Source of the DNA: a virus
Taxonomy: Duplodnaviria > Caudoviricetes
Length of the DNA stretch: 64,000 bases
Virus record (IMG/VR): IMGVR_UViG_2974799246_000001
Span: 64,001 to 128,000 of that record
Direction: 5' to 3' (one strand)
This document shows positions 3,495 through 24,357 of this stretch, in pieces; positions within the stretch are counted from its first letter, which is position 1; the number at the start of each line of letters is the position of its first letter. The position numbers and the translations under genes are program-made. The notes under the pieces are model-generated. The model did not search any database, was not told where the DNA came from, and was given only the letters and a program-made list of their open reading frames with translations.

Positions 3495-4316
3495 TTAATC
3501 TCCCTTAGCCTCGAACCAGAAGTCCCAGCCTACAGTATTGGTGCCGCTGGACTTAATGGTAAAGCCACCTAACAAGGCGTTCTCGTTCACTGCACTAGTA
3601 CCATCAAGGTTGTAGAGCGTAAACGTCTTAGCCTGGTTCGTTGCCGCATTCAAGAACGTAATCTGAATGCTTAGGCAGCGGTTGATGAATGGGCTGTTGA
3701 AGATAACGTGAATGGTGTCAGTAGTTGATTTGTTCACGATGCGACCCATGTTCTGGGTAAAGCCCGTGTTCATATCGCGGTTGCTACCAATCCATGCGTT
3801 TGGAATCACAGCACCTGTTACAGGGTCAAGTGCTTGCGCTGTTCGATACTCGTCGATAGCAGCATCACGCCCCGGGTTACCAGTAGGACCCGTCGCACCA
3901 GTAGGGCCGACTGCGCCCGTGTTACCAGTAGCGCCGACAGGGCCCGTGTTACCAGTAGGACCGTTACGGCCTCTTGGGCCACGAGGGCCAGGACAACCGT
4001 CTTCACCATCACGTCCGTCACGACCATCAGCACCAGGAAGACCGCGTAAGCCGTCTTTACCCTGCTTGCCTTCACGTCCTGACTTGAGCTGGTCGGCAGT
4101 AGGCAAACCAATAACGTTCGTCTGACTGCCGTCCGGCCAAATGAGTGTTAACGTACCTGTTGTCGTATCGAACTGAGCACCCTGAGCACCTGGAATCTTC
4201 GCAGCTTCTTGCGGACTGATAAACGCGACCGCAGTAGAAGTCTTCTTACCTAGCACTTTACCGACGGGGTCGGTGCCACCGTCGATGAGTGAAGGATTAA
4301 TGCGTGTTAAAGACAT
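3495..4316 (-). CDS. Collagen-like fibre protein with C-terminal beta domain
   Basis: 273 aa. Continuous Gly-X-Y run (GREGKQGKDG...GPTGNPGRD), preceded by the FDTTTGTLTL...GLPT motif. Confidence 0.85.
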   Translation of the reverse strand: MSLTRINPSLIDGGTDPVGKVLGKKTSTAVAFISPQEAAKIPGAQGAQFDTTTGTLTLIWPDGSQTNVIGLPTADQLKSGREGKQGKDGLRGLPGADGRDGRDGEDGCPGPRGPRGRNGPTGNTGPVGATGNTGAVGPTGATGPTGNPGRDAAIDEYRTAQALDPVTGAVIPNAWIGSNRDMNTGFTQNMGRIVNKSTTDTIHVIFNSPFINRCLSIQITFLNAATNQAKTFTLYNLDGTSAVNENALLGGFTIKSSGTNTVGWDFWFEAKGD

Positions 4317-20481: not shown

Positions 20482-20904
20482 TTACTGGGACCTCATGGCA
20501 AACGTAACGGATTCTTTCGATTCGAGCTTAGGACAGCGCCACGTAACGATACACACGTAGGTCTGTTCGTATTGCTCGCTCATTGTACACGCTGTCTGCA
20601 CGTTGGTCACATCATTCGTAAGACCATTAGCTGGGTCTTCGAGCGCAAGGCGCATGTACGTTGCAATCCAGTCGGCTGTAGTCTGGTCGAAAGGTTCAAA
20701 TAGGTATTGATACACGTCAGCACCAAACGACTCACGCCATTTGCGAGACTTTTTGCGAGTACCAATGACCATTAAAATCTTCTGGACAATGCTGTCCATG
20801 TTCTGCACGTTATCGCGCGGTTCAAGTTGAATCCACGCATTGATATCACAATAGACTCGCTCGCTGATAGGAACGTCTATTAGTCTGACTCCGATTCCTG
20901 CCAT
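20482..20904 (-). CDS. Baseplate wedge protein, gp25/gpW-like
   Basis: 140 aa. SIVQKILMVIGTRKKSRKWRESFGADVYQYLFEP is a gp25-type signature. Confidence 0.85.
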   Translation of the reverse strand: MAGIGVRLIDVPISERVYCDINAWIQLEPRDNVQNMDSIVQKILMVIGTRKKSRKWRESFGADVYQYLFEPFDQTTADWIATYMRLALEDPANGLTNDVTNVQTACTMSEQYEQTYVCIVTWRCPKLESKESVTFAMRSQ

Positions 20905-21194
20905 TAGCCAAATCTCACGTTAGAGCTACCGTTAGAAGCTGTGTCACCACAACTGTTTCCATCACCAGCACGTTGAGCGGGCTTGCCGTTAACACGCACA
21001 CTGGAGCTTGATGTTGCTTTACCAACATGCGGAGGTTTCTTAGGCTTCCAGTGTGGTTTATAGGCGTCACCGCTGCGAACGCTTCCCTTGCCGTTGACAA
21101 GCACATTCGTTGATGCCTGTGCTGGGACGACAGGGAAATAACCGCTGTGACCTGTAGACAGATCTGCGCCAAGTCGAATAGCTTTCTGACCCAT
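20904..21194 (-). CDS. PAAR-domain spike tip protein (gp5.4-like)
   Basis: 96 aa. AIRLGAD..GH, STNVLVNGKGSVRSGD, VRVNGKPAQRAGD..SCG. Confidence 0.9.
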   Translation of the reverse strand: MGQKAIRLGADLSTGHSGYFPVVPAQASTNVLVNGKGSVRSGDAYKPHWKPKKPPHVGKATSSSSVRVNGKPAQRAGDGNSCGDTASNGSSNVRFG

Positions 21195-21217
21195 GATTAT
21201 TCTCCTCTGTTAGACAC

Positions 21218-21225
21218 AAATTAGC
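21218..21225 (-). promoter_or_regulatory. Putative late promoter motif GCTAATTT
   Basis: About 24 nt upstream of the PAAR start, just downstream of a terminator. Confidence 0.6.
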
Positions 21226-21240
21226 TTGTTAGGCCGCAGA

Positions 21241-21270
21241 AACAAAAACGGGCAGCCTCATGGCCACCCA
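21241..21270 (-). terminator. Rho-independent terminator closing the 1.25-kb non-coding unit
   Basis: GGGTGGCC-ATGA-GGCTGCCC-GTTTTTGTT. Confidence 0.85.
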
Positions 21271-21521
21271 GTTTCTGTGCTTGGATTTGTGTCGCCCATT
21301 CCCTCACACCCGAAGCGAGTGCCCGACGGCTTTAGCCGATGAGCCGGAATGAATGTCCGAGAGTGACGATACACCTGGTATCGACAGCATGTGACTCTCG
21401 GGCCATGATAGCAATAGACCAAGCATCGCTATTGCCACCAGCGACACTAAGAACAAAAGCATGTTTCGCTCCTCGTGTCTTACTTTAAATAACTACGTTT
21501 GATCAACTGGTACTTTGTTCT

Positions 21522-21549
21522 GCTCGTCGCCCAACATCACTTGAGTATC
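21522..21549 (-). repeat. 28-nt exact direct repeat, copy A (GATACTCAAGTGATGTTGGGCGACGAGC on the minus strand)
   Basis: Identical to 21911-21938. Confidence 0.95.
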
Positions 21550-21910
21550 AGAACGTTTCTCTGTCTTTACCGCCTACGTTGCGGTTATACCGCGCACGAC
21601 ACTCACATATCAAGGGCACTCGGCGGAAAAGGTAAGTTCCGAATGTCCTAACAACATGAGTGAAGCGAAGGAGGTCCCGTATCGGTGATCTGCAGGGGTT
21701 CACGCACTTTTAACATTCGCTTCTTTGTGCATTAAATCTTTCGTGGACTCGAATGCCCTGCTAATCATTCCACTAAGATATTTCACACCCTATTGTGAAC
21801 GGGTCAAGCTATGGCAGCACGTCAGCACGGCAGGCAGCGGACACACTCCATTAAGCATTGTTAAGGGCAATGCTCAACAGGCTGTGAACAGCTTGGTCGG
21901 AATAGGTTTC

Positions 21911-21938
21911 GCTCGTCGCCCAACATCACTTGAGTATC
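21911..21938 (-). repeat. 28-nt exact direct repeat, copy B
   Basis: Identical to 21522-21549; offset 389 nt. Confidence 0.95.
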
Positions 21939-22507
21939 TCGACCTAAACTTTTACTCTCCACACGACTACAAGGAAGAATCGCGTTTCTGTGACCTGCGG
22001 ATGTTTATCACTCTCAGACTCTTGAGCCACTATCTGGAAGCTAACACGTTGAGTCGTCCGCTGGATGACGTGTTAGCTCTCCTCTCCTCGTCGTGCGAAG
22101 GCCAGAGTGGTAGCTGATGGATTGTCATGAAGTCCTGACAGGAGTCATCGCTTCCCAATGCACACAGGGTGAAAGCCTATGCACATCAGGCAGCGTCTGC
22201 TGCGATACTGCTATCCCCTTGAGAGTGGCCATAGCGTTGAGTTTGCGCTTCGCCAGTCTACGTGCCTGGAAGGTATCTGCCGTGCCTATGTCTGCATTCA
22301 GCATGGTTCCTTTGCTGGGCCTTTTGGGCGTCAGCGACAGAGCAGATATTCATCACGTGGGTGCCGGGGTTGTCCTCACGATTACAGAGCGAACTCAAAC
22401 CGGCTGGAGGCCCGTATGCTCAGGAATGCACATACGAGTTTACCAGAAGAACGGCCCCGCTATGGTAGCGTTCTTCCGAGACATACTGATATTACTATCT
22501 GCAATTT

Positions 22508-22517
22508 TTATTTACAG
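22508..22517 (-). promoter_or_regulatory. Putative promoter motif CTGTAAATAA
   Basis: AT-rich site upstream of the candidate ncRNA; the same 10-mer occurs at 53671-53680 upstream of the ligase and at 22787-22796. Confidence 0.5.
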
Positions 22518-22596
22518 ATTTTTCTTAACCTTCGCCCCAACCACAAGAAGCAGGTTTACCGTCACCGTAACCGATTTTAAACAGCATAGTTAGTCC

Positions 22597-24357
22597 TTAG
22601 AACGCTTTACGTTCGATGTTGGAGTAGTACGTGTCATATGGTTCGCTATACAGCTCAGGGCCGCGCTGCGCACGAATGGTCACGTAACCAGTGTGTCGGT
22701 TGAACGCGATGATTTCGACTGTAGGCTGTTTCGGCTTGATGGTCGAATAAATCGGAGCGTTCATGGTTGGTTCGTCTGTCTGAATCTTATTTACAGATTG
22801 CAGAGCAGCACCAGACAGCGTAGGCAGATTGAATCTGATTTCCGCACGTTTCTGGCCGAACGCGATTTTGATTACACCAGCAGGAAGCTCAACGCCGTTC
22901 TGTTTCAGATACGCACCAATGCGACGAGCGATACCAGTCAACTGATCGCGTGTGCGAGGGTCGAATGTACCTTCGAAGCTGATTGCTTCTGCTGGCTGGC
23001 GCACGGACAGATGCAGACCTGTGTTGAAATAGCCTTCGGTCAGCAGGCGCAGCACTTCCTTCACGACTTCTTTCGTGTTGGATTTGATAGCAGCGATTTT
23101 GAGTTCAGGCACGTCAACCTTAATCGGGTCACGCAGTTCGGTCTGGTTGTCCATGTAGCCGAGTGATACGTGTTTCGCTTTGGTGTACGTGTGCTGCAAC
23201 ACACCAGTAGCGCGAATCAATACAGAGCCAGACTTCGATTGATCATACAGTTCGTCGCTGGTGGTTGTGCTAAACAGGTAATAGTCTGTAGGCACTGCCA
23301 TACGATTAACCGCTTCAACTGCTTTCGTCTGTACTTCTTTTACAGTTTTACCGAAGACAACACGACTACGGTTAGGCTGTGCTGCCGAGACAGGGAAGAA
23401 GGCGCCGTATACAACCTGCACGTTCTTCTGAATAGGCTTGGAAGAGTTTACCTTGATACCGCCTTGCAGCGGAGGTAGCTTCACGCCCACCAGCTTACCG
23501 TTAACGATAGCTTTGTTTGCTACAACAGGCTTGAGGCCAGACAGCAGTTTCTGCAACTCAGCGCCATCAAGAATCTTCTCAAGCGGAACAGCAAGGTTCT
23601 GCGGCAGATAGTGTTTCTTGCGGAACGAGTAGATAACTGTGTCTTTCTTGATCTGCAAAGGCGTAGCCATGTTGCGACCAATCTGACCTACAGGCTGGAA
23701 CGTGTTCTTCTTGTCATCCGCAATGGTACCGAATGCTTTCGTGAACTCAGACTGTCCGATGATGTTAGCCACACGCTGGTGACCACGAACGATAAACACG
23801 ATCTTCGGTTCGTCTTTCAGGCGCAGTTCGTAACGGTCACGGTTCAGATAAACCATGCTGTACTTATCGCCTTTCTCCAGCTCAAGGTCATACTCATCGT
23901 TGGCGTCATCAACCACGACTTTCTTACCTTGATACGTTGCGTACTGACGAGCAGCAGACTCGGAGGCAATCTCCATAGCCTTACCAGTATTCGACAGCGC
24001 AACAGCAAAGTCAGTTACAGCAGGCATCAGATCAACAGACGATGCAACCGCGTAGCTGTTACGGCGTTCACCGAGATGCAGATGCACGGCACTTGAAGCA
24101 GACATGAATACAGTGTTACCTGTGTCTTCATGCTTACCTGCAAAGTTCATACCGCTAATGCGTTCGATGATGTTGGCGCTTAACGCAGGAAACGCGATAT
24201 CGCTACCAGCAGTGAAGTCAAAAATCTCACCGTGACGCCATGCGTATGCCACGTTGTTCGAGCTAAGACCGACAAACGCATCGCCGATCTGCTTAACAGT
24301 CATCGGCATGATACTCAAGTCACGAATGACCGAGTTTTGCTTTTGAATAAGATTCAT
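22597..24357 (-). CDS. Hypothetical protein, probable internal head protein
   Basis: 586 aa. Several S-x-S/A-x-S motifs in the N-terminal part, followed by a domain shared with three other genes in the window. Confidence 0.7.
   Translation of the reverse strand: MNLIQKQNSVIRDLSIMPMTVKQIGDAFVGLSSNNVAYAWRHGEIFDFTAGSDIAFPALSANIIERISGMNFAGKHEDTGNTVFMSASSAVHLHLGERRNSYAVASSVDLMPAVTDFAVALSNTGKAMEIASESAARQYATYQGKKVVVDDANDEYDLELEKGDKYSMVYLNRDRYELRLKDEPKIVFIVRGHQRVANIIGQSEFTKAFGTIADDKKNTFQPVGQIGRNMATPLQIKKDTVIYSFRKKHYLPQNLAVPLEKILDGAELQKLLSGLKPVVANKAIVNGKLVGVKLPPLQGGIKVNSSKPIQKNVQVVYGAFFPVSAAQPNRSRVVFGKTVKEVQTKAVEAVNRMAVPTDYYLFSTTTSDELYDQSKSGSVLIRATGVLQHTYTKAKHVSLGYMDNQTELRDPIKVDVPELKIAAIKSNTKEVVKEVLRLLTEGYFNTGLHLSVRQPAEAISFEGTFDPRTRDQLTGIARRIGAYLKQNGVELPAGVIKIAFGQKRAEIRFNLPTLSGAALQSVNKIQTDEPTMNAPIYSTIKPKQPTVEIIAFNRHTGYVTIRAQRGPELYSEPYDTYYSNIERKAF

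What the first reader, a model, noticed from the sequence alone, without database searches (positions are those of the whole stretch)
21517..21946. Exact 28-nt module presented twice on different closing stems inside the candidate RNA
Seen: GAUA-CUC-AAGUGAUGUUGGGCGAC-GAG-C occurs twice, 389 nt apart. Copy A is closed by GUUCUG/CAGAAC and copy B by UAGGU/ACCUA. The flanks differ in sequence but both pair, while the bulge, the CUC/GAG stem and the 17-nt loop are invariant. Inference: a sequence-specific functional unit, such as a bivalent protein-binding site, an antitoxin or guide mimic, or an RNA-RNA contact for oligomerisation, rather than a neutral duplication.
Basis: partly seen in the sequence, partly recalled or inferred. 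Interest (0 to 1): 0.75.

Follow-up and report, generated by a model that had tools for sequence, protein, structure and literature searches.

The report
Twin conserved hairpin in phage RNA
A 28-base hairpin tip that occurs twice inside a roughly 1.2-kb folded RNA of giant Erwinia/Dickeya phages, which matches no known RNA family, is real, strongly conserved and backed by compensatory base changes, so it is a functional part of that RNA, probably a docking arm, but its partner is unknown.

Summary
The 28-mer occurs exactly twice, on the minus strand, 389 nt apart, and nowhere else in the 265-kb phage genome. The pattern gave no hit in 185,579 prokaryote species genomes. In IMG/VR it occurs only in this phage clade.

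It lies in a 1.3-kb gap with no conserved ORF, between a 586-aa gene and the PAAR spike gene. The gap is conserved in 44 phage records (Alexandravirus, Sasquatchvirus, Snuvirus, one metagenomic lineage). The gap folds into many covarying helices and ends in a 52-aa membrane-peptide gene and a terminator. Rfam has no match.

Both hairpins are supported by compensatory changes, and G-U pairs fix the RNA strand. Loops are about 89% conserved, against 56-65% for the stems.

Exact identity of the two copies is specific to this lineage. The 3' copy is present in every lineage. The 5' copy is diverged in Y3 and missing in the metagenomic relative.

The loop reads like a kink-turn (3-nt bulge, tandem G.A) capped by a UUGGG pentaloop. 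Y3 replaces the kink with a plain helix and keeps the loop.

Best reading: a docking arm for an unidentified RNA or protein partner. No receptor could be shown.

This scan found the same RNA and twin loop before in related phages (e1-5707328, e1-5390511, e1-5707338).

The parts
21517..21554 (-). It consists of a 6-bp closing stem, a 3-nt AUA bulge, a CUC/GAG stem plus an A.C position, and a 15-nt loop. It is present in all lineages.
   Evidence: Alignment A1: 94.5% of cells paired, 8 of 10 pairs changed on both sides, slid controls at most 42%. CM R1 scores it 57 bits.
21903..21946 (-). It has an outer stem UAGGU/ACCUA, an internal loop CGA/GAA, and then the same 28-nt module. It is present in Alexandravirus and Snuvirus, diverged in Y3, and absent in the metagenomic relative.
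   Evidence: In alignment A2 the outer stem covaries at 6 pairs. In Snuvirus two of the three CGA/GAA positions are Watson-Crick pairs in both phages and the third in one. CM R1 scores it 51.4 bits. Y3 and META show no M1-type hit.
21241..22520 (-). The host transcript: about 1.28 kb, from a conserved 33-nt 5' element to an intrinsic terminator. It is a heavily structured RNA without a conserved long ORF.
   Evidence: Conserved in 44 phage records. No Rfam hit. Alifold consensus of 339 pairs: 93.5% canonical in 14 sequences, 133 pairs with double changes against 39-50 when slid. The long ORFs are not conserved among relatives.
22488..22520 (-). Nearly invariant 33-nt element at the 5' edge, directly after the 586-aa gene in most relatives. 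It may be a promoter or a 5' hairpin.
   Evidence: Alignment. It is unique in the window. Its function was not tested.
21249..21270 (-). Intrinsic terminator: a 9-bp GC-rich stem followed by a U run. It closes the unit upstream of the PAAR gene.
   Evidence: It is conserved, with covarying loop and stem.
21304..21462 (-). A 52-aa small ORF with a hydrophobic N-terminus in the 3' part of the transcript, about 55 nt downstream of M2.
   Evidence: It is conserved in frame across lineages, including in-frame indels. It has no Pfam or PHROG family.
22314..22335 (-). Hairpin whose 14-nt loop contains CGCCCAA, complementary to the module loop UUGGGCG.
   Evidence: The stem covaries (GCUG/CAGC; Y3 GUUG/CAAC; Snuvirus ACCG/CGGU; META CCCGA/UCGGG). 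Loop complementarity is kept only in part of Alexandravirus and lost in Y3 and META.

Best explanation
The two 28-mers are two copies of one conserved hairpin arm of a previously undescribed, roughly 1.2-kb structured RNA. The RNA is transcribed from the minus strand of giant Erwinia/Dickeya phages.

Each arm consists of the following parts, in order:
- a covarying closing helix;
- a 3-nt A-N-A bulge;
- a 3-4 bp helix;
- an asymmetric internal motif with the sequence signature of a kink-turn (3-nt bulge AGU, then G-A facing G-A);
- one G-C pair;
- a G-rich pentaloop (UUGGG).

Shown here: the arm is an RNA-level structure under purifying selection, and its loop is the best-kept part.

Inferred: the arm is a docking element that holds the UUGGG loop out for a partner. 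The partner is most likely a C-rich RNA segment, either of the same RNA (tertiary contact) or of another copy (quaternary contact). A protein is less likely. The kink sets the angle in most lineages.

The 3' copy (M2) is the core element of the family. The 5' copy (M1) is a second, dispensable copy. M1 shares about 50 nt with M2, including an upstream GUAAA(A)G segment.
For: The exact repeat is not expected by chance.

The module is restricted to the RNA:
- It occurs only twice in the own 265-kb genome, by pattern search and by covariance model (57 and 51 bits; next best 10.8 bits).
- It has 0 hits in 185,579 prokaryote species genomes.
- In IMG/VR it occurs only in the same phage clade.

Both arms are supported by covariation:
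- M2: 94.5% paired, 8 of 10 pairs changed on both sides, slid controls at most 42%.
- M1: the outer stem covaries.
- Both copies together: 7 of 9 pairs changed on both sides.
- G-U pairs in both helices of M2 would be A.C mismatches on the other strand.

The loop is under stronger constraint than the stems. Loop identity is 89%, against 56-65% for the stems. The metagenomic relative has RNA 56% identical overall but keeps 27 of 28 module positions.

The loop reads C helix, AGU, GA ... GA, C helix. This fits the k-turn definition in PMC4316175. A weak box C/D hit falls on exactly this stretch.

The position flanking the bulge switches between A.C, U-A and A-U, as expected for a closing pair.

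Y3 turns the bulge and the G.A pairs into a continuous 8-bp helix but keeps the AGUUGG loop. This points to the loop as the functional tip.

Profile cross-hits between the M1 and M2 regions extend about 50 nt.

Conserved hairpin loops on variable stems mediate intermolecular bridges in OLE, ROOL and GOLLD (PMC12286853). K-turns commonly position terminal loops for tertiary contacts (PMC4316175).
Against: No receptor could be shown. The complementary loop at 22314-22335 pairs with 6-7 bp in about half of the Alexandraviruses. It pairs with only 3-5 bp in Alexandra, AD1, Y3 and the metagenomic relative, without compensatory change.

Other complementary sites (22185-22191, inside the small ORF, and the PAAR leader) are about as frequent as chance allows for a G/U-rich loop.

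Single-column covariation is uninformative with only about 14 divergent sequences.

The k-turn reading rests on sequence alone:
- The pair next to the bulge is an A.C mismatch in this phage.
- The 2n G is A in two lineages.
- Y3 lacks the motif.
- No L7Ae-family protein is encoded by the phage.

Near-invariance of 15 loop nucleotides is at least as typical of a protein site as of a short RNA-RNA contact.

Transcription of the region has not been shown. Metatranscriptome contigs were uninformative.
Confidence: 0.4

Rival explanations
1. The module is a sequence-specific protein-binding hairpin, for a phage or host protein. Two copies would allow a dimer to bind or raise avidity. The RNA would then be a scaffold, decoy or regulated leader.
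For: Fifteen loop nucleotides are nearly invariant over RNAs that are only 56% identical. No covarying RNA receptor was found. K-turn and K-loop motifs are classic protein sites, and OLE RNA has a protein-associated kink-turn.
Against: No L7Ae-family protein is found in the phage genome. Y3 abolishes the kink-turn signature yet keeps the loop. One copy suffices in two lineages. No candidate protein was identified.
Confidence: 0.3
2. Double intramolecular pseudoknot. Both loops pair with the two adjacent complementary sites (CGCCCAA and GCCCAGCA) at 22313-22330 in the 5' part of the same RNA.
For: In this phage the loop finds 7 Watson-Crick pairs with CGCCCAA; only 2% of windows score as well. 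That site sits in the loop of a hairpin whose stem covaries. Most substitutions in the site within Alexandravirus are C-to-U changes opposite G.
Against: The second site (CAGC) is the 3' strand of the local stem, which covaries with its 5' strand (GUUG/CAAC in Y3), so it is not free. Complementarity falls to 3-5 bp in Alexandra, AD1, S3, Y3 and the metagenomic relative. The loop U-to-C change is not compensated. Snuvirus and the metagenomic relative share a different loop at that hairpin although one has M1 and the other does not.
Confidence: 0.12
3. M2 is a cis-regulatory element of the 52-aa membrane-peptide gene about 55 nt downstream. It would be part of a giant leader that controls the hairpin occluding the ribosome-binding site. 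M1 would be an accessory copy.
For: M2 is the copy kept in all lineages and lies next to the small ORF. The ORF's Shine-Dalgarno sequence and start codon sit in a hairpin with a covarying stem.
Against: No complementarity between the loop and the RBS hairpin was found beyond chance. A leader of about 1 kb with more than 20 covarying helices far exceeds known translational control elements. M1 is 450 nt away from the ORF.
Confidence: 0.1
4. Neutral recent duplication or gene conversion, or a DNA-level repeat (operator or origin-type site) with no RNA function.
For: The two copies are 28/28 identical only in this phage's immediate lineage, which could reflect conversion.
Against: Both positions hold the motif in phages down to 60% RNA identity. 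Stems covary and G-U pairs are meaningless in duplex DNA. The few free positions (bulge middle base and three stem pairs) make identity easy to reach under constraint without conversion.
Confidence: 0.03

Closest known systems
Kink-turn / K-loop motif (Kt-7 type; box C/D and C'/D' of archaeal sRNAs)
   Same: Both have a canonical helix, a 3-nt bulge, then G-A on the bulged strand facing G-A on the other strand next to the helix. In the module the non-canonical side is capped almost at once by a loop, as in K-loops. K-turns often aim a terminal loop at a receptor (PMC4316175).
   Different: The pair next to the bulge is A.C in this phage. Only one Watson-Crick pair follows the G.A pairs. The motif is lost in Y3. 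No L7Ae-type protein is found in the phage. The geometry is untested. There are no guide regions or paired C/D boxes, so it is not a C/D sRNA (15.7 bits against a cut-off of 36).
GOLLD, ROOL and OLE large ornate RNAs (PMC12286853)
   Same: All are large RNAs of about 0.6-1 kb or more with many covarying helices, often phage-borne. [quoted passage not shown]
   Different: There is no sequence or structure match in Rfam 15, even at E up to 10. The host group differs (jumbo phages of Enterobacterales). The RNA is linked to a small membrane-peptide gene. Multimerisation was not tested.
phi29 pRNA interlocking loops
   Same: It is a phage-encoded structural RNA in which two specific hairpin loops pair between molecules to build a ring. 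It is encoded among virion and packaging functions.
   Different: pRNA is about 120-174 nt, and its two loops are complementary to each other. Here the two loops are identical and not self-complementary, so a third element would be needed.
SAM-I / lysine / c-di-GMP-II riboswitch k-turn arms
   Same: A k-turn in a hairpin arm lets the terminal loop reach a distant receptor or loop (PMC4316175).
   Different: Those are aptamers of 100-200 nt with known ligands and covarying loop-receptor pairs. Here no receptor covaries and no ligand is implied.

Membership tests
Kink-turn (k-turn / K-loop) | [quoted passage not shown] | tested here: met
   The CUC/GAG helix covaries (CCC/GGG, CCA/UGG, CCU/AGG); 3 of 4 pairs change on both sides. 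The pair adjacent to the bulge is A.C in this phage and U-A or A-U in most M2 copies.
Kink-turn (k-turn / K-loop) | Three-nucleotide bulge followed on its 3' side by tandem G.A and A.G pairs | tested here: inconclusive
   The sequence pattern AGU-GA ... GA is present in 16 of 20 distinct module sequences. 2n is A in two. Alexandra M2 has an insertion. Y3 has Watson-Crick pairs instead. The non-canonical pairing itself cannot be tested with these tools.
Kink-turn (k-turn / K-loop) | Tightly kinked geometry with A-minor contacts; folding induced by metal ions, protein or tertiary contact | not testable with these tools
   This needs FRET, gel or crystal data. By the 3b.3n rule of PMC4382518 (abstract seen), U.C, A.C or a G-C pair would not fold in metal ions alone. 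This is inference only.
Kink-turn (k-turn / K-loop) | L7Ae-family binding protein available (not defining, but usual for K-loops) | tested here: not met
   PF01248 has no match in the 265-kb phage genome at E up to 1, while the controls were positive.
Box C/D sRNA (Rfam RF01144 and relatives) | Score at or above the family gathering threshold; C, D', C', D boxes with guide segments | tested here: not met
   The best hit is sR17 at 15.7 bits against a cut-off of 36, E=1.3. There is no second box pair.
GOLLD / ROOL / OLE / any Rfam 15 family | Covariance-model match | tested here: not met
   No match at gathering scores in the 64-kb window. None at E up to 10 in 20800-22900 apart from the sR17 noise hit.
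CRISPR-repeat mimic (RNA anti-CRISPR) or type III antitoxin repeats | Similarity to a CRISPR direct repeat family, or tandem 30-40-nt repeats next to a toxin gene | tested here: not met
   No CRISPR-DR family hit in Rfam. The copies are 389 nt apart, not tandem. The module is absent from 185,579 prokaryote genomes.
Loop-receptor / kissing-loop tertiary contact | Complementary partner that covaries with the loop | tested here: inconclusive
   The candidate at 22314-22335 is complementary in this phage but not maintained across lineages. Other sites are at chance level. There are too few divergent sequences.

The most novel reading that the evidence does not exclude
The RNA is an RNA-only or RNA-protein assembly unit, like ROOL and GOLLD cages or the phi29 pRNA ring. 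The identical M1 and M2 loops would be intermolecular bridges docking onto a C-rich site of neighbouring copies. This would build a multimer that acts during virion or baseplate assembly, or as a container or decoy in jumbo-phage infection.
Probability: 0.1. Interest if true: 0.85.

Novelty: new member of a known kind. Interest (0 to 1): 0.6.

Why it matters
Large structured non-coding RNAs are rare, and the function of most (GOLLD, ROOL, OLE, raiA) is still unknown. Here a new one sits in cultivable, genetically tractable phages of a laboratory-friendly host (Erwinia amylovora, Dickeya).

Its best-conserved element is a small, separable hairpin that can be mutated, used as bait, or tested for kink-turn folding. 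That makes the question of what such phage RNAs do directly testable.

The natural variants give ready-made controls: one copy or two copies, and a kink or a plain helix.

For annotation, the hypothetical proteins called inside this region in some deposited genomes are probably spurious. A conserved 52-aa gene is missed in most records.

Tried and rejected
1. Expression evidence. Public runs holding the stretch were almost all DNA. Four wastewater RNA or probable-DNA libraries gave only short contigs of relatives, spread equally over the genes and the gap. This is no evidence either way.

2. Wider homologues. One metagenome scan with a conserved core motif returned only known phages plus chance matches. 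An IMG/VR scan added one divergent lineage split over two contigs.

3. L7Ae-type protein in the phage: none found.

4. Receptor hunting:
- An all-against-all complementarity scan was too noisy with G-U pairs allowed.
- Column-by-column covariation was swamped by phylogenetic signal.
- The hairpin loop at 22314-22335 is not maintained across lineages.
- 22185-22191 is invariant and compatible with most loop variants. However, it is already the 5' strand of a local, well-supported hairpin, and its frequency is as expected by chance.
- The PAAR leader site and a site inside the small ORF are at chance level.

5. The minimum-free-energy fold pairs CUCAA with UUGGG. It is rejected because no pair covaries.

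6. Reading the metagenomic relative's GAAA-capped hairpin as a replacement of M1: the alignment is ambiguous, so only 'M1 absent' is claimed.

7. Coding potential: the long ORFs on either strand are not conserved.

8. Literature: no paper holds the loop sequence or describes an RNA here.

9. Resemblances to a tRNA D-loop, to the 23S GTPase-centre helix and to CsrA GGA hairpins were recalled from memory only and not tested. They are not claimed.

Full report
**The observation**

The 28-mer is present exactly twice in the 64-kb window, on the minus strand, at 21522-21549 and 21911-21938. No match was found in 100 dinucleotide-preserving shuffles, even with three mismatches allowed.

All real genes of the window are on the minus strand. 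The two copies lie in a 1.4-kb stretch without a long minus-strand ORF. The stretch sits between a 586-aa gene (22597-24357) and a PAAR spike-tip gene (20904-21194) that opens a baseplate cluster.

The 5' copy has an extra internal loop (CGA/GAA) between its outer stem and the module.

**What surrounds it**

The window is an Erwinia jumbo phage of the genus Alexandravirus. It is 98.8% identical to pEa_SNUABM_16, 28 and 18 across this region.

The gap is conserved in 44 phage records: Alexandravirus, including Dickeya phage AD1; Sasquatchvirus Y3; and Snuvirus SNUABM_7. It is also conserved in a metagenomic lineage whose 586-aa protein is only 62% identical.

Rfam 15 has no family here, and there are no tRNAs. 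Long ORFs in the gap differ from phage to phage on both strands, so the hypothetical proteins annotated there in some records are not conserved.

An alifold consensus over 14 divergent sequences has 339 pairs. Of these cells, 93.5% are canonical, and 133 pairs change on both sides, against 39-50 when the partners are slid. At least 24 helices carry two or more compensated pairs.

The unit starts with a nearly invariant 33-nt element (22520-22488). It ends with an intrinsic terminator (21270-21249).

Its last 200 nt hold a 52-aa ORF (21462-21304) with a Shine-Dalgarno sequence and a hydrophobic N-terminus. The ORF is conserved in frame in every lineage, including a 3-nt and a 15-nt in-frame indel.

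So the 'candidate RNA' is real as a conserved structured RNA. It is either a stand-alone RNA co-transcribed with a tiny membrane-peptide gene or an enormous leader of that gene.

**The module in relatives**

Both positions carry the motif in all Alexandraviruses and in Snuvirus.

- 3' copy (M2): 94.5% of cells pair, and 8 of 10 pairs change on both sides. Outer stem variants include GUUCUG/CAGAAC, GAAUUG/CAAUUC, GAGUUG/CAACUC and GUACG/CGUAC. Inner stem variants are CUC/GAG, CCC/GGG, CCA/UGG and CCU/AGG. Slid controls reach at most 42%.
- 5' copy (M1): the outer stem covaries. In Snuvirus, two of the three CGA/GAA internal-loop positions are Watson-Crick pairs in both phages and the third in one of them.
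- Both copies pooled: 7 of 9 pairs change on both sides.

G-U pairs occur in both helices of M2, so the structure is read on the minus-strand RNA, not in DNA.

The thermodynamic alternative that buries UUGGG has no compensated pair.

Loops are 89% identical to this phage on average, against 56-65% for the stem columns. The metagenomic relative has RNA only 56% identical overall, yet its M2 differs at one of 28 positions, and that change turns A.C into A-U.

**What is not constant**

The two copies are identical only in this phage's immediate lineage. Elsewhere they differ at 1 to 6 or more of the 28 positions, mostly at the bulge's middle base and in the covarying pairs. Because few positions are free, identity needs no gene conversion.

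A covariance model of the module finds exactly two hits in the own 265-kb genome: 57 and 51 bits, with the next best at 10.8 bits. It finds only the 3' copy in Y3 and in the metagenomic lineage.

In Y3 the 5' arm persists with a diverged loop. In the metagenomic RNA the arm is missing, and the homology of a short GAAA-capped hairpin near that place is ambiguous.

The degenerate 28-nt pattern is absent from 185,579 prokaryote species genomes. In IMG/VR it occurs only in this clade.

Profile searches show that the similarity between the two arms extends over about 50 nt. This includes an upstream GUAAA(A)G segment, consistent with an old internal duplication.

**Anatomy of the loop**

Across copies the consensus reads as follows:
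- helix;
- a closing position (A.C, U-A or A-U);
- AGU;
- GA;
- one variable base;
- G;
- U(U/C)GG(G/A);
- C;
- (G/A)A;
- the closing position;
- helix.

This is the sequence pattern that defines a kink-turn: a canonical helix, a three-nucleotide bulge, then G.A and A.G pairs (PMC4316175). Here it is capped after one G-C pair by a pentaloop, as in K-loops. The only Rfam signal, a sub-threshold box C/D hit, lies on this stretch.

This remains a reading of sequence. The neighbouring pair is a mismatch in this phage, and the 2n G is A in two lineages. The phage encodes no L7Ae-family protein.

Y3 is the informative case. It lacks two bases of the bulged strand and has changed the opposite strand, so that bulge and G.A pairs become a continuous 8-bp helix (-15.2 kcal/mol, z -2.7). 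The AGUUGG loop is kept. The tip is therefore the constant feature, and the kink is one way to present it.

**Partner**

I could not identify one.

- The loop of the hairpin at 22314-22335 holds CGCCCAA, which gives seven Watson-Crick pairs with UUGGGCG in this phage. Only 2% of windows score as well.
- The adjacent second 'site' is the 3' strand of that hairpin's own covarying stem, so it is not free.
- The complementarity decays to 3-5 pairs in Alexandra, AD1, S3, Y3 and the metagenomic relative without compensation.
- Two invariant sites complementary to nearly all loop variants exist, at 22185-22191 and inside the small ORF. A G/U-rich heptamer is expected to find about that many by chance, and the first is already paired locally.
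- With about 14 informative sequences, column covariation has no power.

**Conclusion**

The finding is a genuine, selected structural element of a new large phage RNA. The most economical mechanism is a docking arm that presents a G-rich loop to an RNA partner (intra- or intermolecular) or to a protein. The RNA option is slightly favoured by analogy with k-turn arms of riboswitches and with the conserved bridge loops of OLE, ROOL and GOLLD. The protein option is kept alive by the extreme loop conservation.

The 3' copy is the core element, and bivalency is optional.

The same RNA and the same twin loop were reported earlier in this scan from related phage genomes. I reached the same core reading and add several points:
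- the covariation statistics;
- the kink-turn-like parsing;
- the Y3 helix variant;
- the one-copy lineages;
- the rejection of the alternative fold;
- the negative tests of the proposed receptor.

Noticed in passing
window 21304-21462 (-): A conserved 52-aa ORF with a hydrophobic N-terminal helix and an AGGAG Shine-Dalgarno sequence, inside the 3' part of the structured RNA. It is kept in frame in all lineages (3-nt insertion in Y3; 15-nt deletion in SNUABM_35 and SNUABM_2). The metagenomic relative keeps both its length and its C-terminal residues. It has no Pfam or PHROG family. It is unannotated in most deposited genomes. Its size and shape recall type I toxin or holin-like peptides.
   Followed up: partly
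window 21443-21479 (-): The Shine-Dalgarno sequence and start codon of the small ORF sit in a hairpin (GACAC ... GUGUC). Its outer stem covaries (GACAU/AUGUC in the metagenomic relative, GGCAU/AUGUC in Y3, GACGAU/AUUGUC in Snuvirus). This suggests structure-controlled translation.
   Followed up: partly
window 21725-22117 (+), 22117-22593 (+); L001 2558-3122: The ORFs of 130-158 aa on the opposite strand, and the two hypothetical proteins annotated in pEa_SNUABM_16 within the RNA region, are not conserved in relatives. They are probably spurious gene calls.
   Followed up: yes
L003 about 3850-3958; L006 1928-2056; L011 1925-2047: AD1, SNUABM_33 and SNUABM_3 carry an extra stretch of about 110 nt, with a roughly 40-aa annotated ORF, inserted between the RNA's terminator and the PAAR gene. 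It is absent from this window.
   Followed up: no
window 22597-24357 (-): The 586-aa gene upstream of the RNA has a KMPT-N domain (PF20294, 70.6 bits) and otherwise belongs only to a PHROG of unknown function.
   Followed up: no
window 22154-22191 (-): The invariant strands GCCUGAUG and CAUUGGG form the base of a well-supported hairpin. The 3' strand and its continuation resemble the module loop (GUG..UUGGG..CGA). This is either a remnant of a third copy or a competing pairing partner. It is unexplained.
   Followed up: partly
window about 22380, 21950 and 21563 (-): Each of three successive segments of the RNA has a conserved C-C/U-A/G-G-C element and a GUAAU or GUAAA(A)G element, followed by a long arm. 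The tips of the arms are the hairpin at 22314-22335, then M1, then M2. Profile similarity is weak (E 0.0025-0.04).
   Followed up: partly
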